Source: a virus. Taken from it: a DNA stretch of 64,000 nt. Under the pieces are notes generated by a model. That model had not been told where the DNA came from and made no database searches. It saw only the letters and a list, made by a program, of their open reading frames with translations. Location: UHGV virus genome UHGV-1351772. One strand, given 5' to 3'. The position numbers were made by a program, and so were the translations under genes. Of the stretch, positions 744 to 63,637 are shown piece by piece (the stretch's first letter is position 1; the number at the start of each line of letters is the position of its first letter).

Positions 744-758
744 TAATAATATCTATCC
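744..758. promoter_or_regulatory. palindromic promoter-like motif TAATAATATCTATCC followed by AT-rich box
   Basis: Variant of recurring AGATAATATCT element; intergenic, next to terminator. Confidence 0.4.
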
Positions 759-827: not shown

Positions 828-3122
828 TTATTTACCAGCAGCAGCTTTGCCTTCGCCAGCAACGTTACCTGCTACACCACCTTCGGTTTGTTTCTGACCG
901 TTCTGTTCAACAGAAACATTGTAAGCCAGTTTTTCTTCAACCAGTTTGGTGATGCCTTTAACCCAGATCAGACCAGTGATCGGGCAGTGGCAGATGTGCG
1001 CGTTACGTGGCTGTACGGCCAGCTCTTTAGAGGTAGAACCGTTACGCTGAATGTTGATGTTGGTAACCATGATCGGAGACCAGAAGTGGTTACCCCAGTT
1101 CAGCACGTTGTAGGAACCATCGTCCGCAGTCGGAACTTTCAGGAACCATTGCAGACGACGAGTCCAGGAACCGTCAGCTGCGTTGTAGATACGCCAGCGG
1201 TCATCGTTGGTGGTGATCACTTCGTATTCGTAGCGATCGCCCAGCAGACGTTGGTCGCCCTGTACCAGCAGCAGCATAGATGCAGTCGGTTCGTCAGTTG
1301 CAATAACAACTTTCGGCAGAATGTCCGGATCGGCAGTGTACAGACGCAGCGCAGGAATGAAGCGAGATTCCTGGATAGCCTGAGTTACCTGATTACCGAT
1401 ACGCTGTACCAGGCCCTGACGAGCGTTGATCAGTGCATCTTTGGTATCCAGGGACTGTACAACTTCATCAACGTTGTAGTCAGACTCTTTGAACCACGGA
1501 GCAACCCAGTGACGTCCCAGACCACGAATGGCCGGTTTGTCCCACGGAGTGATCATGCTTGCAGCAGCGTTACGTACCGCTTCGGTGTAAGACAGCGTCT
1601 GAGTGATAGCCAGCTGTTCGTTACGGATGTTAACTGCGGAAATCAGGTCGTCCAGACGTTCGGTATCGTCGTATTCAACTCCAACCGGAGACTTGGTCAG
1701 GATCGGAGAACCGTATTGCAGTTTGTAGTTTTCTTGTTCCCAGATTGGGTCAAGCAGCAGACCCTGGGTACGACGGTTTTCGTTGGTACGAGTACCATCG
1801 AAGCGCCAGCCCATCAGTTCAAGTTTCAGACCGTCCAGGATAACTTTGCCGGTACCAGATTTGGTATCAACTTTGTTACCGGTAGCGTCGTACAGACCTT
1901 CGATTTCCAGTTTGTGACCAGCGATGTCAACTTTACCACCGAACTGACCGGTAGTGAACAGAGACATGTTGATGGTGATCACATAACGCAGGGTGTAGGA
2001 GTTCTGACCAAGCGCTTGCAGTGCCGGAATAGCCGCACCAGTCCAGTCGGTAGTTTTCGCGTTCAGAGAGAACGCAGTACGACGGAATTGCAGTACCAGC
2101 TCACGGCCATCACCTTCAGCAGGACGCTGGAAGGTTGCGAACTGCATGTCACGAACGTGCAGTTTGATGAATTTACCTGCTTTTGCTTCTTCGGTCGGTT
2201 TACGTACGGAAATCAGCAGGCTGCCCAGAGCACAACCCGGTGCGATTTCATCAGTTTCGTCGTAACCTTCCTGAACGATACCCGGATGCGCAGACAGCTG
2301 GAACAGGTTCAGAGTGTCTTTAGCAAAGCTCAGGTAGTTAGTCGGGTACGGAGGTACACGACCCAGGCGAACAGATTCGTTCGGTACCAGTTCTTCGCTT
2401 ACGAAGTATTCAGCGTTTTCACCGGTTTCCATTACGTAAGGAACGATGTTGATCGCTTCGTCCTGAAGAACGGTGTGGTCAGTCAGCGCTTCGTGCAGGT
2501 TACGACGATGATCTTCAACAACGTCTTTGGTCAGTAACGCGTGCATGACACCACGAGAAACGGTGGTCACTTTGGTACGTACGGTAATACCAACGTCATT
2601 GGTGTCAACGGTGATGGTCGGGAACAGAGTCTCAGCGAAACGAGACTGAGTTTCCAGAGCACGTACGTTCAGCGTCCAGGTCAGACCCAGGTTTTTGTCG
2701 TAATCTTTGTTGGTGTAGTATTCCTGAGCAACAACCATACGCTCTTTGCCCCAGTCGCCGTTACCAGCTTGGGAACCAGGAATCGCAACGTCCAGGTTAA
2801 AACGGCTATGGAATTCTGGCTTAGCGTATTCTTGCGCTACTTTTTCTTGCAGGTCCATACCGTGACCAGCAGCACCCAGAATCATTGCAGAAGCAACTTC
2901 CGCAGCGTGGGACATTTTCTTGCCGCCAGCAAACGCGTTTGCGTAGTGCTGTGCAGCATCGTCACGCAGGGTACCAAAAACTTTCGTGTTGCTACGTACA
3001 GACTCACCAGCAACGATGGTGTTCCACATTTCGCCAGCACTGTTGTTACTAATGACGCTTTGTACCAGCGAGTTACCAGCTTGTACGAGTTTCTCCAGAT
3101 TAGAGATTCGGGTATCTTTCAT
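828..3122 (-). CDS. major virion structural protein, putative (major capsid or tail sheath)
   Basis: 764-aa ORF with strongly biased, highly-expressed-like codon usage; natural-looking composition; own terminator; size typical of jumbo-phage capsid/sheath proteins; product is inference. Confidence 0.55.
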   Translation of the reverse strand: MKDTRISNLEKLVQAGNSLVQSVISNNSAGEMWNTIVAGESVRSNTKVFGTLRDDAAQHYANAFAGGKKMSHAAEVASAMILGAAGHGMDLQEKVAQEYAKPEFHSRFNLDVAIPGSQAGNGDWGKERMVVAQEYYTNKDYDKNLGLTWTLNVRALETQSRFAETLFPTITVDTNDVGITVRTKVTTVSRGVMHALLTKDVVEDHRRNLHEALTDHTVLQDEAINIVPYVMETGENAEYFVSEELVPNESVRLGRVPPYPTNYLSFAKDTLNLFQLSAHPGIVQEGYDETDEIAPGCALGSLLISVRKPTEEAKAGKFIKLHVRDMQFATFQRPAEGDGRELVLQFRRTAFSLNAKTTDWTGAAIPALQALGQNSYTLRYVITINMSLFTTGQFGGKVDIAGHKLEIEGLYDATGNKVDTKSGTGKVILDGLKLELMGWRFDGTRTNENRRTQGLLLDPIWEQENYKLQYGSPILTKSPVGVEYDDTERLDDLISAVNIRNEQLAITQTLSYTEAVRNAAASMITPWDKPAIRGLGRHWVAPWFKESDYNVDEVVQSLDTKDALINARQGLVQRIGNQVTQAIQESRFIPALRLYTADPDILPKVVIATDEPTASMLLLVQGDQRLLGDRYEYEVITTNDDRWRIYNAADGSWTRRLQWFLKVPTADDGSYNVLNWGNHFWSPIMVTNINIQRNGSTSKELAVQPRNAHICHCPITGLIWVKGITKLVEEKLAYNVSVEQNGQKQTEGGVAGNVAGEGKAAAGK

Positions 3123-3672: not shown

Positions 3673-5235
3673 ATGAATAACAAAATGATGTTGATAACCG
3701 CCTTAGCCACATTATACGCTGAAAGTCTTCTGACCGATCCTGAAAAGGACCACGACATCATAAGAAAAGTGCTGTTAGAGGCTAAGCTTCCTGATTACGC
3801 AGAAGAAGGTGACGAACGTGCCGCCCTCGTCGAAATCAAGGATATCATCACATCCATCATAGACGGCGGTATGCCTTACGACCACACAAACGTCATGAAA
3901 CGTTTGAAACTGGCCACTACGCAAATACGTCCTCTATACGATACGATTACCAAATTCCTGGAAGATGATATTCCAGAAGAACCAGAAGCACGCATCGAGC
4001 ATCTTAATCGCCAAGTAGCACAATACTACTTTCAGTTACGTCAAGCTATTCAAGGCGTACAACTGAAACAAAAATTGGGTCGTACGTTAGGCGCACTGAA
4101 CGGCACTGAAACGCGTGTTGATTTACAAACGGCGCTCAACGACCTTAAGGATACCTTATCCACGTTCAGTGAACGCTCTCATAATAAGATTCCTTCTCTG
4201 GTAGGGGAATTGATTACTGATAATAAAGCACCTTTCGTGCATGTATTCGACTCTATCAGTAAGAAAGCGGCAGGGAACGGGTTGCGTACGGGGTGGAAAG
4301 CAATTAACCAAATGCTCGGTTGTAACAAAGGGATCACCGAAGAACTCTGGCTGATGCCTGCTCTTCCCTTTAACTGTAAATCATTATTCAGTTTATTGCT
4401 CTCTATTAGCATTCCTGTATTCAACACTCCAGAAAAGGTGATGGCGAATGTTAAAGGTGACCTACAACCGGTTATTCTGGATTTAAGTTTAGAAAACGAA
4501 TTGGATGTTAACTTGGCTTACGCGTATCAAGCACTTTACGGACACTTTGAAGGTACAGCTCCGGTAATGGTTGCACCTGAAACGGCAACTGACGAAGAAA
4601 AAGCGCTACACAATGCACAAATGTCAGATTACCTCTGTAGTAAAATGCGGGCAAACGGTTGGGAGTATATTTTCCAAAAACACACAAACTCCGATTTTAA
4701 AATTCACTATTTGAATGATTTGATTTTAGATTTAAAACGTCGAGGTTATCATGTAGCTGGAATACGCGGAGACTATTTCGGTACTATCAGCAAAGCAGGA
4801 CACGGTAACGGCATTGCGGGTAGTGACATTAAAGAAATTTATCGTATCGCGCGAAACATCCAAGTGGTACGTAATCGTGGTTTCCTCTTAGCACCACACC
4901 AAATCTCACCTGAAGGCAAAAAATTAAAAGCACTCGACCCAGCAAGTTTCTGTAAGAGCTTACCTGGTCGTGGTCTTTACGACAACTGCTCTAGCTTAGA
5001 CAACGAAGCTGACGGTGAGATGTATTTTAACAAACGTGTCGTCAGCGGACACAGCTATTTAGAAGTACAACGCGGTAAACACCGTACCATTATTGATACC
5101 AAAGAAGCTTATCATTATACTGTAATACCTTTCCGTGATGTTGGCATTTTGCCATGGGATTGTGATAAAGAAGAAACTGTAACAGCCTCGTCGATTAACG
5201 TATTTACCGGCGGCATGGGTGACGAACTCTTTTGA
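3673..5235 (+). CDS. hypothetical protein
   Basis: 520-aa ORF divergent from 3659; followed by hairpin terminator at 5236..5262. Confidence 0.6.
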   Translation: MNNKMMLITALATLYAESLLTDPEKDHDIIRKVLLEAKLPDYAEEGDERAALVEIKDIITSIIDGGMPYDHTNVMKRLKLATTQIRPLYDTITKFLEDDIPEEPEARIEHLNRQVAQYYFQLRQAIQGVQLKQKLGRTLGALNGTETRVDLQTALNDLKDTLSTFSERSHNKIPSLVGELITDNKAPFVHVFDSISKKAAGNGLRTGWKAINQMLGCNKGITEELWLMPALPFNCKSLFSLLLSISIPVFNTPEKVMANVKGDLQPVILDLSLENELDVNLAYAYQALYGHFEGTAPVMVAPETATDEEKALHNAQMSDYLCSKMRANGWEYIFQKHTNSDFKIHYLNDLILDLKRRGYHVAGIRGDYFGTISKAGHGNGIAGSDIKEIYRIARNIQVVRNRGFLLAPHQISPEGKKLKALDPASFCKSLPGRGLYDNCSSLDNEADGEMYFNKRVVSGHSYLEVQRGKHRTIIDTKEAYHYTVIPFRDVGILPWDCDKEETVTASSINVFTGGMGDELF

Positions 5236-5262
5236 GTCTGGGGAGCTTCGGCTCCCCCTTAT
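5236..5262 (+). terminator. rho-independent terminator
   Basis: ggggagc-ttcg-gctcccc hairpin directly after stop of 3673..5235. Confidence 0.5.
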
Positions 5263-5378
5263 GACCCCTTATGCGTCTCGAAAAACAAAAAAAAACAGAA
5301 GGCTATTAATTATGAACGGGAAACAACTACTGAACTAAGTAGGGGGTGGTGACAACACCCCCTTTATTAGTTAGTAAC

Positions 5379-5540
5379 TTATCTCCTTACAGGTGGTTGG
5401 TGAACATTGTGGTTGTTAACCGTTTTCGGTGCCGCAACGAGGCCGAGACGAACATATTCGTCCATGCGTTGGTTAAACTGAATTTGTTTTTCACGATTTC
5501 GCATCGCGGTATTGGACATCTGTATTTGATATTCGTTCAT
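5379..5540 (-). CDS. small protein, paralog 1 of 3 (about 53 aa)
   Basis: Below ORF-track size cutoff; manual translation MNEYQIQMSNTAMRNREKQIQFNQRMDEYVRLGLVAAPK...; shares xFNxRxxExxxLGL core with 5695..5865; RBS-like aaagg upstream. Confidence 0.4.
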   Translation of the reverse strand: MNEYQIQMSNTAMRNREKQIQFNQRMDEYVRLGLVAAPKTVNNHNVHQPPVRR

Positions 5541-5600
5541 TTTTCATTACCTTTCGTAATGTTGTAAAAACGTCAACAACTTTATGTGTTGACACCGTAC

Positions 5601-5690
5601 AGCAGAGACTGTTCCGCCAGTCTCTGCTGCTTTAACTTCTCTTTCGAAAAGTTAAAGCTATGAAAAGGGGTGCTTCACCACCCCTTTATT
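5601..5690 (-). repeat. three-hairpin RNA module, copy 1
   Basis: Tandem stem-loops: cagcagagactg/cagtctctgctg, gctttaac...gttaaagc (loop ttctctttcgaaaa), ggggtg/cacccc + T-run. Confidence 0.55.
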
Positions 5691-5694
5691 TTAT

Positions 5695-5865
5695 TTAGTA
5701 GTTACTTCTCCTTTCGGTGAAGATTTGTACTCGAGGATTATTAGAAGGTTTAAGCCTTTTATTTAATCCTAGCTGTTGAACTTCTCTTAATCGTTCATTA
5801 AACCTCGCTTGTTCTGCATAGCTGTTTGAGATAGAAGTAAAGATACGTGTATTGTTGTTAGTCAT
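5695..5865 (-). CDS. small protein, paralog 2 of 3 (about 56 aa)
   Basis: Manual translation MTNNNTRIFTSISNSYAEQARFNERLREVQQLGLNKRL...; similar core to paralog 1. Confidence 0.4.
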   Translation of the reverse strand: MTNNNTRIFTSISNSYAEQARFNERLREVQQLGLNKRLKPSNNPRVQIFTERRSNY

Positions 5866-5922
5866 GTTAAAACCTCACACGAGTTGGGGATTAAGCTATT
5901 ACGCGGGTGTAATAGCAACAAG

Positions 5923-6005
5923 TAGGGACTGTACCGGCAGTCCCTACTGCTTTATCTTCTCTTTCGAAAAGATAAAGCGCCTATGGGGAGTGTTGGCGCA
6001 CTCCC
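5923..6005 (-). repeat. three-hairpin RNA module, copy 2
   Basis: Same architecture as copy 1; middle hairpin gctttatc...gataaagc has the identical loop with compensatory stem change (aac/gtt to atc/gat). Confidence 0.55.
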
Positions 6006-6015
6006 CTTTAGGTTG

Positions 6016-6168
6016 TTACCTCCTCTCAACTGCCAACTGGGTGTTTCTTGAATATGCAACTTTGGGCTGTGTTAACGTTGGTTGCGCTATTTCACTAACC
6101 CTTCGCTGAAACTCAAGTTGTTTTGTTGACAACTCGTTTAACCGTCGAAACAGCAGTTCATGTTTCAT
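6016..6168 (-). CDS. small protein, paralog 3 of 3 (about 50 aa)
   Basis: Manual translation MKHELLFRRLNELSTKQLEFQRRVSEIAQ...; weaker similarity to paralogs 1 and 2. Confidence 0.3.
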   Translation of the reverse strand: MKHELLFRRLNELSTKQLEFQRRVSEIAQPTLTQPKVAYSRNTQLAVERR

Positions 6169-6244
6169 GAACTCATCACCTATGTCGATTTTGCGAAAAT
6201 AAATAAAGTGTACCCCTAATCCTTTTCGGGATTAGGGGTTGCTT

Positions 6245-7060
6245 TTATTTAGTCGCTACGTATTGAACATGGCCACATTCCTTACATTCCACGTTGGCTT
6301 TCGGGATTGTCAGGCCGGTTAAAGGAACACGTATTTGGTACTGTGCTCCACATTCTTCACAAACAAAATCGTGTTCTGGATAAACACGACCTTCTAATTT
6401 CTCTTCTTTCCTTAGTGTGCCTGCTAAGAACAGCATCGCACCTAACGCTTCATTAATCTGCTGTTCCCATTCTCCGTCTAACGGGTAAGCGAACGCACGA
6501 GTCAACGTTTCCACCATCTCTGGAGTATTACTTACATAAACGTGTTTCAGTTCAAACTCAACACGCTGTAAGCCAAACAATACGCGTGCTGTTACAGTAA
6601 CATTATCCAACGTTTGTGCAAATACAACGGGATTATCGTCGCCGTACATCGCGAATAACGCAGCACGTTCGTATTCGATATCACTCCACTCGATTAGTTC
6701 TACAGATTTAATCTCTTCCGCAATCGTAGCATTACCGAACGTTTCATGTTCCAATAATCCGACGATAACTTCATTCAACGATTTCAATTGCTGTAAACGA
6801 ATCACAGGATCGGTGTTCACGATAAGCAAACGATGCATTCTGGATTTCAACCAATTAATCGTTCCTTCTACACCGCCCCCAAACGAGCAGATGCTTATCA
6901 CTTCAGGTTCGCGAAGGATAAGAGTGGATTTTCCTGCTGCCGTACTCAAGTAGAGTTTAAAAGACTTATCGCTGGACTCTGCAACGATGGCAATGTCTTC
7001 AGTTGGAACAAAGTTTTCATTGCTCAGTCCACGCGGAAAATAATCTTTAATGGTAATCAT
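6245..7060 (-). CDS. hypothetical protein with C-terminal CxxC...CxxC zinc-ribbon; possible P-loop-like segment
   Basis: 271 aa; CEECG...CKECG near C-terminus; STAAGKST segment resembles a deviant Walker A but is not canonical. Confidence 0.5.
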   Translation of the reverse strand: MITIKDYFPRGLSNENFVPTEDIAIVAESSDKSFKLYLSTAAGKSTLILREPEVISICSFGGGVEGTINWLKSRMHRLLIVNTDPVIRLQQLKSLNEVIVGLLEHETFGNATIAEEIKSVELIEWSDIEYERAALFAMYGDDNPVVFAQTLDNVTVTARVLFGLQRVEFELKHVYVSNTPEMVETLTRAFAYPLDGEWEQQINEALGAMLFLAGTLRKEEKLEGRVYPEHDFVCEECGAQYQIRVPLTGLTIPKANVECKECGHVQYVATK

Positions 7061-7113
7061 CTTTTATGCTCCAATTAATAAAAAATTAAGGGCACCCGAA
7101 GGTGCCTTATACA

Positions 7114-7257
7114 TTAACCACGACCAGTGCACTGTGCAACGGAGTTACCGTTGTCGATGCAAGTGTCGTAGCCTTTGTCGATGTCCAGATACAGGCAACC
7201 CAGAACAACAGCGATAACAACAGCGAAAATAGCTTTTTTGTGTTTTACAGAAATCAT
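7114..7257 (-). CDS. small putative lipoprotein (47 aa)
   Basis: Manual translation MISVKHKKAIFAVVIAVVLGCLYLDIDKGYDTCIDNGNSVAQCTGRG; hydrophobic signal-like segment ending in lipobox-like VLGC; followed by hairpin terminator 7089..7105. Confidence 0.45.
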   Translation of the reverse strand: MISVKHKKAIFAVVIAVVLGCLYLDIDKGYDTCIDNGNSVAQCTGRG

Positions 7258-7460
7258 GATATAACTCCTAATTAGGTATTCGATAAATGAGTATTACGTA
7301 AACTCTCACCTAGGTAATATATATCTGAAATCTTTTTGAATCCATATACCCTCTAGAACGCTCTAAAACGCATTCTGACGCAATTTTCTTTTTAAAGGGT
7401 AATTAGTCGTCTTAGCGGTTAAATGACTTCTGCGTGTCGTTTAGGAATAAATAAAAGGTA

Positions 7461-14870: not shown

Positions 14871-14886
14871 AGATAATATCTATCTG
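14871..14886. promoter_or_regulatory. palindromic promoter-like motif AGATAATATCTATCTG with AT-rich box
   Basis: Consensus copy in intergenic region between minus-strand genes. Confidence 0.45.
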
Positions 14887-24568: not shown

Positions 24569-24606
24569 GTTACCCTACTCCTTCGGGAGTAGGGTAATCT
24601 TTTTTA
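24569..24606. terminator. bidirectional terminator, repeated element copy 1
   Basis: gttaccctactcc-ttcg-ggagtagggtaat, UUCG loop, T-run; between convergent genes; identical 30-nt copy at 29929. Confidence 0.65.
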
Positions 24607-29928: not shown

Positions 29929-29966
29929 GTTACCCTACTCCTTCGGGAGTAGGGTAATACTTTTAT
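29929..29966. terminator. bidirectional terminator, repeated element copy 2
   Basis: Identical gttaccctactccttcgggagtagggtaat; between convergent genes. Confidence 0.65.
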
Positions 29967-42110: not shown

Positions 42111-42126
42111 GGATAATATCTATCTC
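42111..42126. promoter_or_regulatory. palindromic promoter-like motif GGATAATATCTATCTC with AT-rich box
   Basis: In divergent intergenic region, upstream of ATG 42146. Confidence 0.5.
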
Positions 42127-45645: not shown

Positions 45646-47358
45646 TTATTGATTAAACCATGCTACTTCTTCGCATTTCTTTCTGTTTTGAATTAACAGA
45701 AATTCTGCTAACATGTTCTGAAGTCGCGGATGAGGTGAATAGTCCAACATCACTGTCCCACACCGTAACATTCTGGCTGCTTCCGGTGTTGCCCTGAGAT
45801 TGAAGTTGAACGGTGCAATATGTTCACGAACCAACAAGCTGAGAGAATCCTTCAATGTTGATTGTTCGTAAGTATTACGATGCTTACGGTATGCTTGTGG
45901 ATAATATCTATCCGTTTTTATTTTAATCTCATTATCGATTGGCTCGATAGGATACCCGCCATTTAGCGGTGCCCGGATCATTTCACAACTTAACAACTGT
46001 GCAATCTCAGGCATTCCGTAATAGATGTAAACGGCTTGGGATATACCCATCGCGTTCTTAAACGCTTCTGCGTCGATTTCCTTGTATGTACGACGATCTG
46101 CAAATCGGTGCATCACTGCCGCCACCAACCATTCGTAGAGTTCGTAGAAAGGATATTGATGGTTAATGTTGATGGAATCTATCAACACTTTCACATCAGC
46201 GGGAGCAATATCGAGATTCAAAGCACGCACCGCACGACGATAGTCATTAAAGAATTCTTGAGTACGAACGAATTCCTTCATTGGTGCTTTAGTCCGAGCT
46301 TGAACCAGGTCAATCGACGAAGTTTTCCCCTTCTCGCCGTTGAACATGATTTTCTCAGGATTCGCTTTTAGCATCACGTTTTGACCGGAAATTTTTCCCG
46401 CGAAGCCCGTTTCAATTTCTTGCCGAATATTGAAATACATCCCCGCCACGATGTTGTTTTCAACCATCGTACCTGGTGGTAGTTCGGCACCGATTAACTT
46501 CATCGCAATTAAACGGATAACGGCGAACGCTATGATGTATTCCTCTACCATATCCGTACCGTAGCCGCAGATAGATGCCAGGACGGTAAGGTTTGCAGTA
46601 TTAGGTCCTTTACTCCCCCCGTCCTGAACTTTCGAAATCACCGACACTAAAAACTCACGCAACTTTGTAATGGCTGGCAGTGTAGCAATCTCGGTATCAG
46701 ACAACAGTTCCATGCAGTAGGTCAGGTTATAAACACTTTTGCGCTTCGACTCAACAGAAGCACGTGTTGCAGGAAAAGCGTCCAAAATCAAGAATACGGG
46801 AATAAACGGTTTTGTCATCAAAGACAAAATCACCAATTCGTAATAATCTTGTACGATATACGTCATCTCTTTTGGATAATTCGACGACATCTCTTCGTAC
46901 GTTTCGTGGACGTTTTGAGGAATCCACACCGAACCGTGTGGATAAAGCTGGCGGAATCTATCTGCGTGATGAAATTTAGCAATTCTCGCGACGAGCGTGG
47001 GGACGTGTTCACGAATAACTTCTGGGGGTTCATTAGCTAACAACTCTAATTCTTCGTAAACTGAAAACAGTTCGCTTTTCTCTTCAGGTGTTAAAGTTGA
47101 CCAATAACGCTCGATTTCCATGAACATGATTTTATCGTGCGTTACGATCTGTCCGAAACTATCGCGTACGTCTGGCACATTCACGTCTTTACGTCCATTT
47201 CGGAAACCATTAAACGCGACCTCTTTTTCGCCGTACTTTATCACTAAACGGTCACGATTCTTTTCAATGCGCATTTTAAAATCTCCAGGAATAACATAGT
47301 CGTCCACTAAGATAAAATCTATCTCAGATAACTTCGACTGTATTCTACACACATACAC
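45646..47358 (-). CDS. hypothetical protein
   Basis: 570-aa ORF. Confidence 0.55.
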   Translation of the reverse strand: MYVCRIQSKLSEIDFILVDDYVIPGDFKMRIEKNRDRLVIKYGEKEVAFNGFRNGRKDVNVPDVRDSFGQIVTHDKIMFMEIERYWSTLTPEEKSELFSVYEELELLANEPPEVIREHVPTLVARIAKFHHADRFRQLYPHGSVWIPQNVHETYEEMSSNYPKEMTYIVQDYYELVILSLMTKPFIPVFLILDAFPATRASVESKRKSVYNLTYCMELLSDTEIATLPAITKLREFLVSVISKVQDGGSKGPNTANLTVLASICGYGTDMVEEYIIAFAVIRLIAMKLIGAELPPGTMVENNIVAGMYFNIRQEIETGFAGKISGQNVMLKANPEKIMFNGEKGKTSSIDLVQARTKAPMKEFVRTQEFFNDYRRAVRALNLDIAPADVKVLIDSININHQYPFYELYEWLVAAVMHRFADRRTYKEIDAEAFKNAMGISQAVYIYYGMPEIAQLLSCEMIRAPLNGGYPIEPIDNEIKIKTDRYYPQAYRKHRNTYEQSTLKDSLSLLVREHIAPFNFNLRATPEAARMLRCGTVMLDYSPHPRLQNMLAEFLLIQNRKKCEEVAWFNQ

Positions 47359-55740: not shown

Positions 55741-55754
55741 AGATAATATCTAGC
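55741..55754. promoter_or_regulatory. palindromic promoter-like motif AGATAATATCTAGC with downstream GATATTTT
   Basis: First of two tandem copies in the divergent region between 55691 and 55900. Confidence 0.55.
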
Positions 55755-55820: not shown

Positions 55821-55834
55821 AGATAATATCTTTC
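55821..55834. promoter_or_regulatory. palindromic promoter-like motif AGATAATATCTTTC with downstream GATATTTT
   Basis: Second tandem copy, 80 nt from the first. Confidence 0.55.
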
Positions 55835-63622: not shown

Positions 63623-63637
63623 AGATAATATCTATAC
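63623..63637. promoter_or_regulatory. palindromic promoter-like motif AGATAATATCTATAC with downstream AAATATT
   Basis: Consensus copy in divergent region upstream of ATG 63756. Confidence 0.5.

What the first reader, a model, noticed from the sequence alone, without database searches (positions are those of the whole stretch)
5340..6240. Three tandem small paralogous genes, two followed by copies of a multi-hairpin RNA module with compensatory stem changes
Between convergent larger genes lie three short minus-strand ORFs (5379..5540, 5695..5865, 6016..6168), too short for the ORF track. The first two share a core (QFNQRMDEYVRLGL vs RFNERLREVQQLGL); the third is weaker (QLEFQRRVSEI). After paralogs 2 and 3 comes a near-identical three-hairpin block (5601..5690, 5923..6005). 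The middle hairpin keeps an identical 14-nt loop (ttctctttcgaaaa) while its stem differs by paired substitutions (gctttaAc/gTtaaagc vs gctttaTc/gAtaaagc), which indicates selection on RNA structure. The flanking hairpins also keep architecture (gactgt-ccg-cagtc core) with different stem sequence. A terminator alone would not need three hairpins with a conserved loop, so this may be a processing site, protein-binding operator or small structured RNA.
Basis: seen in the sequence. Interest (0 to 1): 0.75.

Follow-up and report, generated by a model that had tools for sequence, protein, structure and literature searches.

The report
Hairpin linkers between shuffled phage micro-genes
In a giant (about 220 kb) phage of enterobacteria, three tiny related genes are separated by a conserved block of four DNA/RNA hairpins that most likely stops transcription between the genes and also serves as the joint at which related phages swap, lose and gain these genes.

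Summary
The window is an SPN3US-like jumbo phage. ORFs 6016-6168, 5695-5865 and 5379-5540 (minus strand) are genuine paralogous micro-genes: pN/pS is 0-0.19, and an independent profile ranks them the top three of 1084 ORF segments. Each junction carries four hairpins, not three. The "14-nt loop" is really a 13-bp stem with a tetraloop (H2). These are the most structured 120-nt stretches in the 64 kb.

Twenty-four module copies (23 distinct) from 15 related genomes or contigs show the following:
- H2 is almost invariant and is never inverted.
- H3 keeps 100% pairing, with 7 of 11 pairs changed on both sides.
- H1 travels with the upstream gene and H3/H4 with the downstream gene.
- Gene content differs between near-identical phages.
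- H1, H3 and H4 loops are repeatedly exact reverse complements between relatives. This is DNA template switching, so paired stem changes alone do not prove selection on RNA.
- Seoulvirus and Machinavirus keep the same GC / AT-rich / GC hairpin triplet upstream of their homologous micro-gene.

Best reading: a terminator/insulator linker of a hyperplastic cassette array, analogous to T4 PeSLs. This is a new variant of a known kind. The molecular role of H2 is unresolved.

The parts
6016..6168 (-). Micro-gene ORF3 (50 aa), first cassette of the array
   Evidence: It is an ORF. Orthologs in 10 or more relatives show 4 synonymous and 0 non-synonymous differences. It is the top hit of the independent profile A4, E = 0.0024.
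5695..5865 (-). Micro-gene ORF2 (56 aa), second cassette
   Evidence: It is an ORF. pN/pS is 0.03, from 8 synonymous and 1 non-synonymous differences between the window and L116. AlphaFold2 predicts a single long N-terminal helix (residues 2-35, pLDDT 81-92) and a disordered basic tail.
5379..5540 (-). Micro-gene ORF1 (53 aa), last cassette before the convergent helicase gene
   Evidence: It is an ORF. It is conserved in L020-L023, L142 and L143. Its A4 profile E-value is 0.0064.
6212..6239 (-). T0: GC-rich terminator hairpin (CCCCTAATCC-CGAAAA-GGATTAGGGG) ending the upstream transcription unit (271-aa gene)
   Evidence: It is reported by the inverted-repeat and terminator scans. It is identical and never flipped in all relatives. 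The homologous hairpin in Seoulvirus/Machinavirus shows 8 of 10 pairs changed on both sides and U.G wobbles only on the sense strand.
6190..6208 (-). T-rich tract CTTTATTTATTTTCGCAAA after T0. It corresponds to the 5' arm plus loop of the ancestral AT-rich hairpin (H2 homolog). The 3' arm is missing here.
   Evidence: It occurs once in the window. In Machinavirus the same 17 nt continue into GAAAATAAA to form the hairpin. In L022 and L023, truncated ORF remnants start directly after this tract.
5985..6006 (-). Module A, H1: GGGGAGTG-CGCCAA-CACTCCCC, directly after the ORF3 stop
   Evidence: Fold. It is terminator-like on the + strand. The H1 type travels with the upstream ORF.
5949..5978 (-). 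Module A, H2: 13-bp AT-rich stem with a U.G pair and a GAAA tetraloop (variable pair is T-A)
   Evidence: Across the 20 aligned copies, 12 of 13 pairs are invariant. The element is never inverted in any copy.
5921..5948 (-). Module A, H3: AGTAGGGACTG-CCGGTA-CAGTCCCTACT, abutting H2 with no spacer
   Evidence: Pairing is 100% across 20 copies, with 7 of 11 pairs changed on both sides. It reads as an intrinsic-terminator-like site on the + strand.
5895..5916 (-). Module A, H4: GCTATTAC-ACCCGC-GTAATAGC, a cassette-specific leader hairpin of ORF2
   Evidence: Fold. The H4 type goes with the downstream ORF type.
5664..5687 (-). Module B, H1: AAAGGGGTG-GTGAAG-CACCCCTTT followed by TCAT, after the ORF2 stop
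   Evidence: It resembles the phiKZ terminator motif, a CCCC/GGGG hairpin followed by TTAT (PMC10914365).
5629..5658 (-). Module B, H2 (variable pair is A-T)
5601..5628 (-). Module B, H3: AGCAGAGACTG-GCGGAA-CAGTCTCTGCT
5571..5594 (-). Module B, H4: GTCAACAC-ATAAAGTT-GTTGAC, a leader hairpin specific to the ORF1 cassette
   Evidence: Fold. The same H4 precedes ORF1 in L020, L022, L023, L142 and L143.
5545..5561 (-). Small hairpin CATTAC-GAAAG-GTAATG that carries the ORF1 Shine-Dalgarno region
   Evidence: Read from the sequence. It is also folded in the L142 homolog.
5341..5363 (-). H1': terminal GC hairpin after ORF1 (GGGGGTG-loop-CACCCCC). No H2 or H3 follows it.
   Evidence: The whole hairpin is the exact reverse complement of the L023 version, and the L020 and L142 versions are also flips of each other.

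Best explanation
The region is a hyperplastic array of paralogous micro-gene cassettes in an SPN3US-like jumbo phage. The repeated hairpin block is the conserved linker between cassettes.

Proposed working:
- Each cassette is [H3-H4 leader, RBS, roughly 50-aa gene, H1].
- H1 is a phiKZ-type intrinsic terminator or attenuator and a 3' stabiliser for the upstream cistron.
- The AT-rich H2 plus the abutting GC hairpin H3 form a second barrier. Read on the opposite strand, H3 followed by the T-rich H2 arm is an intrinsic-terminator-like site facing the convergent helicase gene.
- On the sense RNA, H2-H3-H4 give the downstream cistron a strongly structured 5' end.
- The net effect is transcriptional insulation, and probably differential mRNA stability, of each tiny cistron in a stretch that lacks the phage's recurrent promoter-like motif.
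- At the DNA level, the near-invariant H2 (with H3) is the patch of homology at which general recombination swaps, deletes and duplicates cassettes. The perfect palindromes also undergo replication template switching, which flips loops and can install paired stem changes.

Shown here: the anatomy, the coding status of the ORFs, the conservation pattern, the cassette mosaicism, a crossover inside H2, and the loop flips.

Inferred: termination or insulation activity, and the RNA-level role of H2/H3.
For: Anatomy:
- Four hairpins per junction, z about -9.7; they are the most structured 120-nt windows of the 64 kb.

Terminator-likeness:
- H1 and T0 are GGGG/CCCC hairpins flanked by A-rich and T-rich tracts. 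H1 is often followed by TTAT, as in the 61-member phiKZ terminator motif (PMC10914365).
- H3 and H1 are reported as terminator-like on the + strand.
- T0 homologs show U.G wobbles only on the sense strand.

No promoter of the recurrent type:
- The motif GATAGATATTATCT (10 copies against 0.39 expected; those checked lie about 30-60 nt upstream of minus-strand starts) occurs at 7312-7325, ahead of the unit that ends at T0. It does not occur inside 5340-6240.

Conservation:
- In the 20 aligned copies, 99.6% of cells are paired. H2 has 12 of 13 pairs invariant. H3 has 7 of 11 pairs changed on both sides.
- Stems are almost unchanged between orthologous modules while loops change at 5-6 of 6 positions.
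- H2 is never inverted in any of the 24 copies tabulated, although 4-nt and 6-nt loops of neighbouring hairpins flip.
- In H2+H3 there are 5 independent G.U events on the sense strand and 0 A.C.
- The same GC / AT-rich / GC triplet lies upstream of the homologous micro-gene in Seoulvirus and Machinavirus, with different GC stems.

Linker role:
- Fifteen related genomes or contigs carry arrays 3-2-1, 3-1, 3-4, 3-5-4, 3-2-4, 6-2-4 and 6-1, some with truncated remnants.
- The H1 type follows the upstream ORF; the H3/H4 type follows the downstream ORF.
- Associations between spacer, loop and H3 type place crossovers on both sides of the H2 loop. L055/L116 carry a chimeric H2 with an A.A mismatch.
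- The L020/L142 array (3-1) is what a crossover between the two window modules would leave.

Precedent: PeSL terminator/promoter cassettes of T4-type phages (PMC2839356, PMC4122927).
Against: - There are no transcript data for any SPN3US-like phage, so termination, read-through and processing are untested.
- T-runs after H1 and H3 are short (4 T or fewer in most copies), and the termination rules of these phage RNA polymerases are poorly known.
- Ordinary bidirectional terminators elsewhere in the window are single hairpins. This leaves the need for three or four unexplained.
- H2 is sequence-conserved far beyond what a T-tract would require. It occurs only at this locus: once per Huxley genome and twice in the window. 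That could instead indicate a specific cis-element.
- ORF3 is conserved without a complete H2/H3 upstream, so H2/H3 is not needed by every family member.
- The G.U strand asymmetry disappears when H1 and H4 are included (51 versus 47).
- H2 conservation could be due to gene conversion rather than to function.
Confidence: 0.5

Rival explanations
1. H2 (with H3) is a specific cis-regulatory element tied to this micro-protein family. It would be an RNA or DNA operator bound by a phage factor, possibly the micro-proteins themselves, for autoregulation or translational control.
For: - The H2 stem sequence is nearly invariant in the 20 aligned copies.
- Its core, CTTTA..TTTTCG.AAAGA..TAAAG, is recognisable across three genera although the surrounding DNA is unalignable.
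- It is locus-specific, occurring once in the 240-kb Huxley genome.
- It always lies upstream of a family member and always in the same orientation.
Against: - The micro-protein model is a single helix plus a disordered tail, with no recognisable nucleic-acid-binding fold and no Pfam or PHROG hit.
- The paralogs are only 10-40% identical, yet H2 does not co-vary with them.
- ORF3 and SPN3US gp194 lack a complete H2 upstream.
- The tetraloop varies.
Confidence: 0.15
2. The AT-rich H2 region is, or contains, a promoter for a phage RNA polymerase. The module would then be a true terminator-plus-promoter cassette (moron- or PeSL-like), with H3/H4 forming the 5' end of each monocistronic mRNA.
For: - vRNAP promoters of phiKZ-related phages are extended, highly conserved AT-rich sequences (PMC5312081).
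- H2 sits between a terminator-like hairpin and the gene, at a roughly constant 82-89 nt from the ATG.
- In 201phi2-1 and phiKZ, starts followed closely by terminators give 5'UTR-derived small RNAs (PMC11512511).
Against: - H2 is not repeated anywhere else in the window or in a whole related genome, so it is not the general early, middle or late consensus.
- The recurrent promoter-like motif of this phage, GATAGATATTATCT, is absent from the array.
- No convincing sigma-70 promoter was found.
Confidence: 0.15
3. The hairpins have no RNA-level function. They are DNA palindromes created, perfected and homogenised by template switching and gene conversion in a recombination hot spot, and they persist because they are neutral or self-propagating.
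For: - Exact loop inversions are frequent in H1, H3, H4 and H1'.
- Template switching can create perfect stems and multi-base 'compensatory' changes (PMC8794818).
- A chimeric H2 exists.
- Rearrangement breakpoints lie in the loop of the ancestral AT-rich hairpin.
- H1 of module A and H3 resemble each other (GGGAGTG versus GGGACTG), and the loop CGCCAA is shared between H1 of the window and H3 of L021.
Against: - The triplet architecture is kept across three genera, with T0 and H3 stems completely replaced.
- H2 and T0 never flip although their neighbours do.
- The single U.G in H2 persists in all copies instead of being 'corrected' to a perfect palindrome.
- H1 and T0 match an experimentally defined terminator class in a related phage.
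Confidence: 0.15
4. The block encodes, or is processed into, a stable small structured RNA (sRNA), or it is an RNase III/RNase E processing site that releases monocistronic mRNAs.
For: - The structure is very stable.
- An AU-rich single-stranded spacer (UUAUCAUA) lies between H1 and H2, flanked by protective hairpins.
- Giant phages do produce intergenic and 5'UTR-derived sRNAs.
Against: - No Rfam family reaches its threshold; the best score is 25 bits against a gathering score of 50.
- H2 (13 bp) and H3 (11 bp) are each shorter than classical RNase III substrates.
- No target complementarity or promoter was identified, and there are no expression data.
Confidence: 0.08

Closest known systems
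PeSL (promoter-early stem-loop) regulatory cassettes of T4-type phages (Arbiol et al. 2010, PMC2839356; Comeau et al. 2014, PMC4122927)
   Same: Both are short conserved intergenic cassettes containing a GGGG...CCCC stem-loop terminator. Both flank small ORFan genes in a hyperplastic region and mark the insertion, deletion and replacement boundaries between near-identical phages. In both, crossovers are mapped inside the cassette, including the loop.
   Different: - No sigma-70 promoter is present, and the phiKZ-related group to which this phage belongs transcribes with its own RNA polymerases.
- The cassette has four hairpins rather than one.
- It is confined to one locus instead of being dispersed over many regions.
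- The cassettes carry paralogs of one micro-gene family rather than unrelated ORFans.
- Mini-circles were not tested.
phiKZ-type conserved intrinsic terminators (Putzeys et al. 2024, PMC10914365) and the compound terminator motifs of 201phi2-1 (PMC11512511)
   Same: H1 and T0 are CCCC/GGGG-type hairpins followed by a T-rich tract that often contains TTAT. The phage lineage is related. The site lies between convergent genes, where bidirectional termination regions are known.
   Different: Here the terminator-like hairpin is followed by two or three further conserved hairpins. Termination activity has not been measured. The H2 sequence is not part of the published motif.
Integron gene cassettes with attC sites
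   Same: Both are arrays of small, apparently promoterless ORF cassettes separated by imperfect palindromes, with gene content differing between close relatives.
   Different: No integrase lies next to the array. Crossovers are spread over H2 rather than fixed at one point. There are no R/L box architecture or extrahelical bases. The resemblance is one of logic only.
Minute hairpin-loop inversions and template-switch mutations (Monttinen and Loytynoja 2022, PMC8794818)
   Same: Exact reverse-complement loops sit between unchanged stems, and paired stem changes appear in closely related sequences.
   Different: The published cases are mainly in rRNA and microRNA genes. Here the inversions occur at high frequency in the intergenic hairpins of a phage.

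Membership tests
PeSL cassettes (T4-type phages) | Strong sigma-70-like early promoter (-35/-10 boxes with an AT-rich upstream region) inside the cassette | tested here: not met
   The sigma-70 scan of 4800-7300 found 3 weak sites against 4.6 expected. The only one near a module (5568-5539) matches 9 of 12 positions and overlaps the RBS. The phiKZ-related group uses its own RNA polymerases.
PeSL cassettes (T4-type phages) | Stable stem-loop (often GGGG...CCCC) acting as a terminator | tested here: inconclusive
   H1 is a GGGG..CCCC hairpin and is terminator-like by the consensus scan. Termination activity itself cannot be measured here.
PeSL cassettes (T4-type phages) | Flank ORFans and coincide with indel and replacement boundaries between closely related phages | tested here: met
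   Fifteen related genomes or contigs with 97-100% identical helicase carry different cassette sets joined at the modules.
PeSL cassettes (T4-type phages) | Many copies dispersed through several hyperplastic regions of the genome | tested here: not met
   There are only 2 copies in 64 kb. The pattern scan of whole IMG/VR genomes finds 1-2 copies each, all at this locus.
PeSL cassettes (T4-type phages) | Recombination between flanking cassettes yields mini-circles | not testable with these tools
   This needs inverse PCR or long-read sequencing of infected cells.
Intrinsic terminator of phiKZ-related phages | GC-rich hairpin followed by a T-rich tract containing TTAT | tested here: met
   H1 is followed by TTATCAT in about half of the copies and by TTTTCAT, TTTTCTT or TTTTTTAC in most others. 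T0 is followed by CTTTATTTATTTTCG. The motif is taken from PMC10914365.
Intrinsic terminator of phiKZ-related phages | Transcript 3' ends map at the site | not testable with these tools
   No transcriptome was found for any SPN3US-like phage.
Any Rfam RNA family | Score at or above the family's gathering threshold | tested here: not met
   The best match is ylbH leader at 25.2 bits against a threshold of 50. All others are lower.
Integron attC / site-specific cassette system | Recombination at one fixed position of the palindrome, catalysed by an adjacent integrase | tested here: not met
   Crossovers fall on both sides of the H2 loop. The neighbouring genes are a helicase, a zinc-ribbon protein and structural proteins. 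The rest of the genome was not screened for recombinases.
Dispersed repeat elements (REP/BIME, MITE) | High copy number at many unrelated loci; terminal inverted repeats and target duplications for MITEs | tested here: not met
   The element is locus-restricted.
SPN3US gp194/gp195-like micro-protein family (unnamed) | 47-61 aa; N-terminal helix with [FY]xQR[ILVM]xE; short basic C-terminal tail; encoded next to the 3' end of the DnaB-like helicase gene | tested here: met
   The family aligns colinearly. The independent profile A4 ranks the three window ORFs as the top 3 of 1084 segments. Sixty-seven clusters were found, all from jumbo-phage-sized contigs and all unnamed. Synteny is shared with SPN3US, Machina and Huxley.

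The most novel reading that the evidence does not exclude
H2 is not just a terminator accessory. It would be a dedicated, strand-specific cis-element of this micro-gene family: either a recombination joint recognised by a phage factor, making the array an integrase-less, integron-like cassette exchanger in nucleus-forming-type jumbo phages, or an RNA operator through which the helical micro-proteins control their own array. The evidence leaves this open. H2 is nearly invariant, never inverted, locus-specific, and recognisable across three genera in otherwise unalignable DNA.
Probability: 0.12. Interest if true: 0.8.

Novelty: new variant of a known kind. Interest (0 to 1): 0.5.

Why it matters
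Hyperplastic regions and conserved regulatory linkers that mediate gene shuffling are documented for T4-type phages, which use the host sigma-70 polymerase. I found no published equivalent for phiKZ/SPN3US-like jumbo phages, which transcribe with their own polymerases. This locus shows a compact, easily assayed case:
- one family of roughly 50-aa helical proteins of unknown function;
- six paralog types;
- 15 near-identical genomes or contigs with different cassette orders;
- a 58-nt hairpin joint.

It also gives an unusually clean natural record of template-switch loop inversions. This is a practical warning that 'compensatory' stem changes in perfect palindromes are not by themselves proof of selection on RNA.

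If H2 proves to be a specific element, it would be a new handle on gene regulation or recombination in jumbo phages. If it is an efficient bidirectional insulator for phage polymerases, it is a useful part for engineering.

Tried and rejected
1. Rfam scan at E up to 10: only sub-threshold noise.
2. blastn of the 1.1-kb region against 50,697 phage records: no match, so annotation could not be transferred by DNA similarity.
3. Genome-wide repeat or MITE idea: rejected. The H2, loop and H3 patterns and the covariance model R1 find only the two copies in the window and only this locus in relatives.
4. General promoter idea for the AT-rich hairpin: rejected. It occurs once in the whole 240-kb Huxley genome. 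The 24 other viral hits are on contigs other than those of the related phages collected here and were treated as chance matches without inspection.
5. The loose metagenome pattern returned 118 stretches, of which only about 10 loci were true modules. The rest were discarded with a stricter pattern.
6. Strand-asymmetry test over all hairpins: not significant (51 sense versus 47 antisense G.U). It is confounded by loop-closing and flank pairs. Only H2+H3 show 5 versus 0.
7. Pfam, PHROG and structure prediction for the micro-proteins: no family. The model is a single helix, so no fold search was run.
8. tRNA scan: none found.
9. The structured region at 24.5 kb is an ordinary single-hairpin bidirectional terminator.
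10. Literature search for SPN3US transcriptomes, or for proteomics of gp71-73: nothing usable.
11. The search for related loci with the small-protein alignment returned only loci already held.
Full report
**Where the window comes from**

The 764-aa ORF at 828..3122 (-) is a major head protein. It is 80% identical to that of Erwinia phage Asesino and 79% identical to SPN3US. Gene order matches those phages: head protein, a 174-aa protein, a DnaB-like helicase on the opposite strand, then a block of minus-strand genes. The window is therefore an undescribed SPN3US-like (phiKZ-related) jumbo phage. Near relatives are 220-225 kb IMG/VR and metagenome contigs. Two are 'circular plasmids' in assemblies of E. 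coli 98232 and Enterobacter ludwigii. The 1.1-kb region itself has no blastn match in 50,697 phage records.

**Check of the observation**

The three minus-strand ORFs exist. Between them lies a 58-nt direct repeat, 86% identical, at 5601-5658 and 5921-5978. The H2 pattern occurs twice against 0.00 expected.

Folding the gene-sense (minus) strand gives four hairpins per junction, not three. The z-scores are -9.7 and -9.8.
- H1 is a GGGG/CCCC hairpin right after the stop codon.
- H2 is a 13-bp AT-rich stem with one U.G pair and a GAAA tetraloop.
- H3 is an 11-bp GC-rich stem that abuts H2.
- H4 is an 8-bp stem whose sequence differs between the two junctions.

In a sliding 120-nt fold of the whole window, these junctions are the most structured places on both strands. 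No Rfam family reaches threshold. The covariance model built from the modules finds nothing else in the window.

**The small ORFs are genes and paralogs**

SPN3US has two 48-aa genes (gp195, gp194) at the same position. Huxley, Machina and other Machinavirus and Seoulvirus phages have one. Asesino and phiEaH2 have none.

All align colinearly. Each has an N-terminal helix with [FY]xQR[ILVM]xE, a linker and a short basic tail. A profile made only from the Seoulvirus/Machinavirus proteins ranks the three window ORFs first, second and third among 1084 ORF segments. Their E-values are 0.0024, 0.0064 and 0.052; the next best is 2.4.

Orthologs in related genomes differ mostly at synonymous sites:
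- ORF2: 8 synonymous, 1 non-synonymous, pN/pS 0.03.
- ORF3: 4 synonymous, 0 non-synonymous.
- ORF4: pN/pS 0.19.
- ORF5: pN/pS 0.13.

The family has 67 clusters in the 5.8-billion-protein database. All are unnamed, and all come from jumbo-phage-sized contigs of Escherichia, Shigella, Salmonella or Erwinia. There is no Pfam or PHROG hit. AlphaFold2 gives one long helix (residues 2-35, pLDDT 81-92) and a disordered tail. Their function remains unknown.

**Comparative anatomy of the module**

I collected 24 module copies (23 distinct sequences) from 15 related genomes or contigs. Twenty distinct copies were aligned for pair counting.

On that alignment, 99.6% of pair cells are standard pairs, against 89.1% in column shuffles and 40-54% when partners are slid. 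H2 has 12 of 13 pairs invariant. The single variable pair is A-U (11 copies), U-A (5), G.U (2) or A.A (2). H3 is 100% paired, with 7 of 11 pairs changed on both sides.

Between orthologous modules the H2 and H3 stems are almost unchanged, while H3 loops differ at 5-6 of 6 positions. The H2 tetraloop is GAAA, CAAA, CGAA or GAAAA, so the loop is not the conserved feature.

**The array is a shuffled cassette set**

Six paralog types occur. The observed orders are as follows.

| Genome or contig | Cassette order |
|---|---|
| window, L021 | 3-2-1 |
| L020, L142 | 3-1 |
| L101 | 3-4 |
| L110, L126 | 3-5-4 |
| L055, L116 | 3-2-4 |
| L033 | 6-2-4 |
| L143 | 6-1 |
| L022, L023 | arrays beginning with truncated remnants of ORF2 or ORF4 fused to the tract after T0 |

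These genomes share 97-100% identical helicase. The H1 type and the H1-H2 spacer go with the upstream ORF, and the H3 and H4 types go with the downstream ORF. H2 is common to all.

Spacer type and H2 loop type stay together while H3 type changes. For example, TTTTCTTA with CGAA occurs with two H3 types. Elsewhere loop type changes with the spacer held constant. Crossovers therefore fall on both sides of the H2 loop. L055 and L116 carry an H2 whose 5' arm is of the A type and whose 3' arm is of the T type, giving an A.A mismatch. This is the pattern expected for general homologous recombination on a short shared patch. It is not what a site-specific recombinase would give.

**Loop flips**

Between near-identical genomes, the loops of H3 are exact reverse complements in five independent pairs:
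- TTTCGC and GCGAAA
- CGCCAA and TTGGCG
- TATAGG and CCTATA
- TTGTAG and CTACAA
- CGGTAA and TTACCG

The same holds for other hairpins:
- H1: TGACAG and CTGTCA.
- The terminal hairpin after ORF1: window versus L023, and L020 versus L142.
- The 4-nt loop of H4: GAAA and TTTC.

The stems are only 8-12 bp, far shorter than assembly k-mers. One flip is between an IMG/VR contig and a finished E. coli replicon. Assembly artefact is therefore unlikely (inference).

Such inversions are the footprint of intra-strand template switching at palindromes. The same process can install multi-base 'compensatory' changes in one event (PMC8794818).

**Evidence that the structure is nevertheless functional**

1. 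Seoulvirus and Machinavirus phages carry the same triplet between the upstream gene and their micro-gene. It consists of a GC hairpin with a UUCG loop (T0), an AT-rich hairpin TTTATTTTC-GCAAA-GAAAATAAA, and a GC hairpin, followed by the RBS. The helicases are only 74-83% identical and the intergenic DNA is otherwise unalignable. In T0, 8 of 10 pairs change on both sides, with U.G wobbles only on the sense strand. The AT-rich hairpin is sequence-conserved. The third hairpin has entirely different stems in different subclades.
2. H2 and T0 are never inverted, although neighbouring hairpins with 4-nt and 6-nt loops are.
3. The single U.G in H2 is kept in all copies rather than being corrected to a perfect palindrome.
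4. In H2+H3, wobble pairs arise five times on the sense strand and never on the antisense strand. This asymmetry is not seen for H1 and H4, so it is only suggestive.

**What the hairpins most likely do**

H1 and T0 resemble the conserved phiKZ terminator, a CCCC/GGGG hairpin followed by TTAT (PMC10914365). H1 is followed by TTATCAT, TTTTCAT or TTTTTTAC in most copies. It is flanked by an A-rich tract, so it is terminator-like in both directions. H3 followed by the T-rich arm of H2 is reported as a terminator-like site on the + strand, facing the convergent helicase gene.

A recurrent motif, GATAGATATTATCT, occurs 10 times against 0.39 expected. Nine of the ten copies are on the minus strand, and those checked lie about 30-60 nt upstream of minus-strand start codons. 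It is probably a phage promoter element. One copy at 7312-7325 heads the unit that ends at T0, and none lies in the array.

The simplest reading is that the micro-genes sit in a terminator-bounded island. They would be reached by read-through or from unrecognised weak starts, and each junction would be a multi-hairpin insulator that also shapes mRNA ends. None of this is measured. I found no transcriptome for any SPN3US-like phage.

**An ancestral half-hairpin**

In the window clade, T0 is followed by CTTTATTTATTTTCGCAAA. This is the 5' arm and loop of the Machinavirus AT-rich hairpin, but its 3' arm is missing. The sequences that follow differ between relatives:
- In the window it is the ORF3 leader.
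- In L022 it is the middle of ORF2, joined at a TTCAACA microhomology.
- In L023 it is the end of ORF4.

The breakpoints therefore sit in the loop of that hairpin. In the PeSL study, one RB49 crossover was likewise localised to the stem-loop's loop (PMC2839356).

**Comparison with known systems**

The closest analogue is the PeSL cassette of T4-type phages. PeSLs are conserved terminator/promoter motifs that flank ORFans and mediate modular shuffling in hyperplastic regions.

The behaviour is the same, but membership is not. There is no sigma-70 promoter. There are four hairpins instead of one. The element occupies one locus instead of many. The resemblance to integron attC arrays is one of logic only. 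This is a new variant of a known kind.

**Open points**

I cannot say why H2 is so strongly sequence-conserved and strand-fixed. The candidates are a special termination tract for the phage polymerase, a binding site, or homogenisation by gene conversion. A specific cis-element (operator or recombination joint) is not excluded; I give it about 12%. The function of the micro-proteins is also unknown.

Noticed in passing
window 5341-5363, 5601-5628, 5921-5948, 5664-5687, compared with L020-L023, L033, L055, L056, L073, L110, L116, L126, L142: Hairpin loops are exact reverse complements between near-identical genomes while the stems stay the same. There are at least 5 independent H3 flips, plus flips in H1, H1' and H4. 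H2 and T0 never flip. This looks like frequent template-switch inversion at palindromes.
   Followed up: yes
window 744-757, 7312-7325, 14871-14884, 42111-42124, 45899-45912, 47310-47323, 55741-55754, 55821-55834, 63623-63636 (all minus strand): The AT-rich motif GATAGATATTATCT occurs 10 times against 0.39 expected. Nine of the ten copies are on the minus strand, and those checked lie about 30-60 nt upstream of minus-strand start codons. It is a candidate promoter consensus for a phage RNA polymerase. It is absent from the micro-gene array.
   Followed up: partly
L142 (NZ_CP173450.1, E. coli 98232, 221,873 bp circular) and L143 (NZ_CP134650.1, Enterobacter ludwigii, 222,441 bp circular): Close relatives of this jumbo phage are deposited as circular 'plasmids' in finished bacterial assemblies. 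This suggests a carrier state, pseudolysogeny, or phage DNA co-purified with the culture. It also points to Escherichia and Enterobacter as hosts.
   Followed up: partly
window 6190-6208 (minus strand), compared with L022, L023 and Machinavirus loci L144, L147-L150: The T-rich tract after T0 is the 5' arm plus loop of an AT-rich hairpin that is complete in Machinavirus and Seoulvirus. In the window clade the 3' arm is gone. Truncated ORF remnants are fused right there at 5-7 nt microhomologies (TTCAACA, TTCAC).
   Followed up: partly
window 24570-24597 and 29930-29957: The identical 28-nt terminator hairpin TTACCCTACTCC-TTCG-GGAGTAGGGTAA occurs at two convergent-gene junctions. Asesino carries a similar hairpin (CCCTACTCCTTCGGGAGTAGGG) after its gp88. 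It is a conserved terminator sequence class, as described for phiKZ.
   Followed up: no
window 7114-7257 (minus strand): A 47-aa ORF has a predicted membrane-spanning stretch and a conserved C-terminal C..NGNS...C motif (DKGYDTCIDNGNSVAQCTGRG). It is conserved in phiEaH2-, Asesino-, Huxley- and other SPN3US-like loci (L007, L008, L010-L012, L016). Its function is unknown.
   Followed up: no
window 6245-7060 (minus strand): The 271-aa protein immediately upstream of the array ends in a CxxC...CxxC zinc-ribbon, with only sub-threshold Pfam matches. It has homologs at the same position in SPN3US and Asesino. A nucleic-acid-binding role is conceivable but was not examined.
   Followed up: no
L055 and L116 (ORF3 homolog); L115 (ORF2 and ORF1 homologs): Some relatives carry frameshifted or truncated copies of the micro-genes. 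Examples are ORF3 ending ...TRPTLHTQETPSW in L055 and L116, and ORF2 truncated in L115. This means either individual cassettes are dispensable or the metagenome assemblies are of low quality.
   Followed up: no
window 5985-6006 versus 5921-5948; L021 H3: H1 of module A (GGGGAGTG-CGCCAA-CACTCCCC) resembles H3 (AGGGACTG-...-CAGTCCCT). Its loop CGCCAA is identical to the H3 loop of L021 and L073. The whole H1-H2-H3 block may therefore have arisen as an inverted duplication of a terminator around the H2 centre.
   Followed up: no
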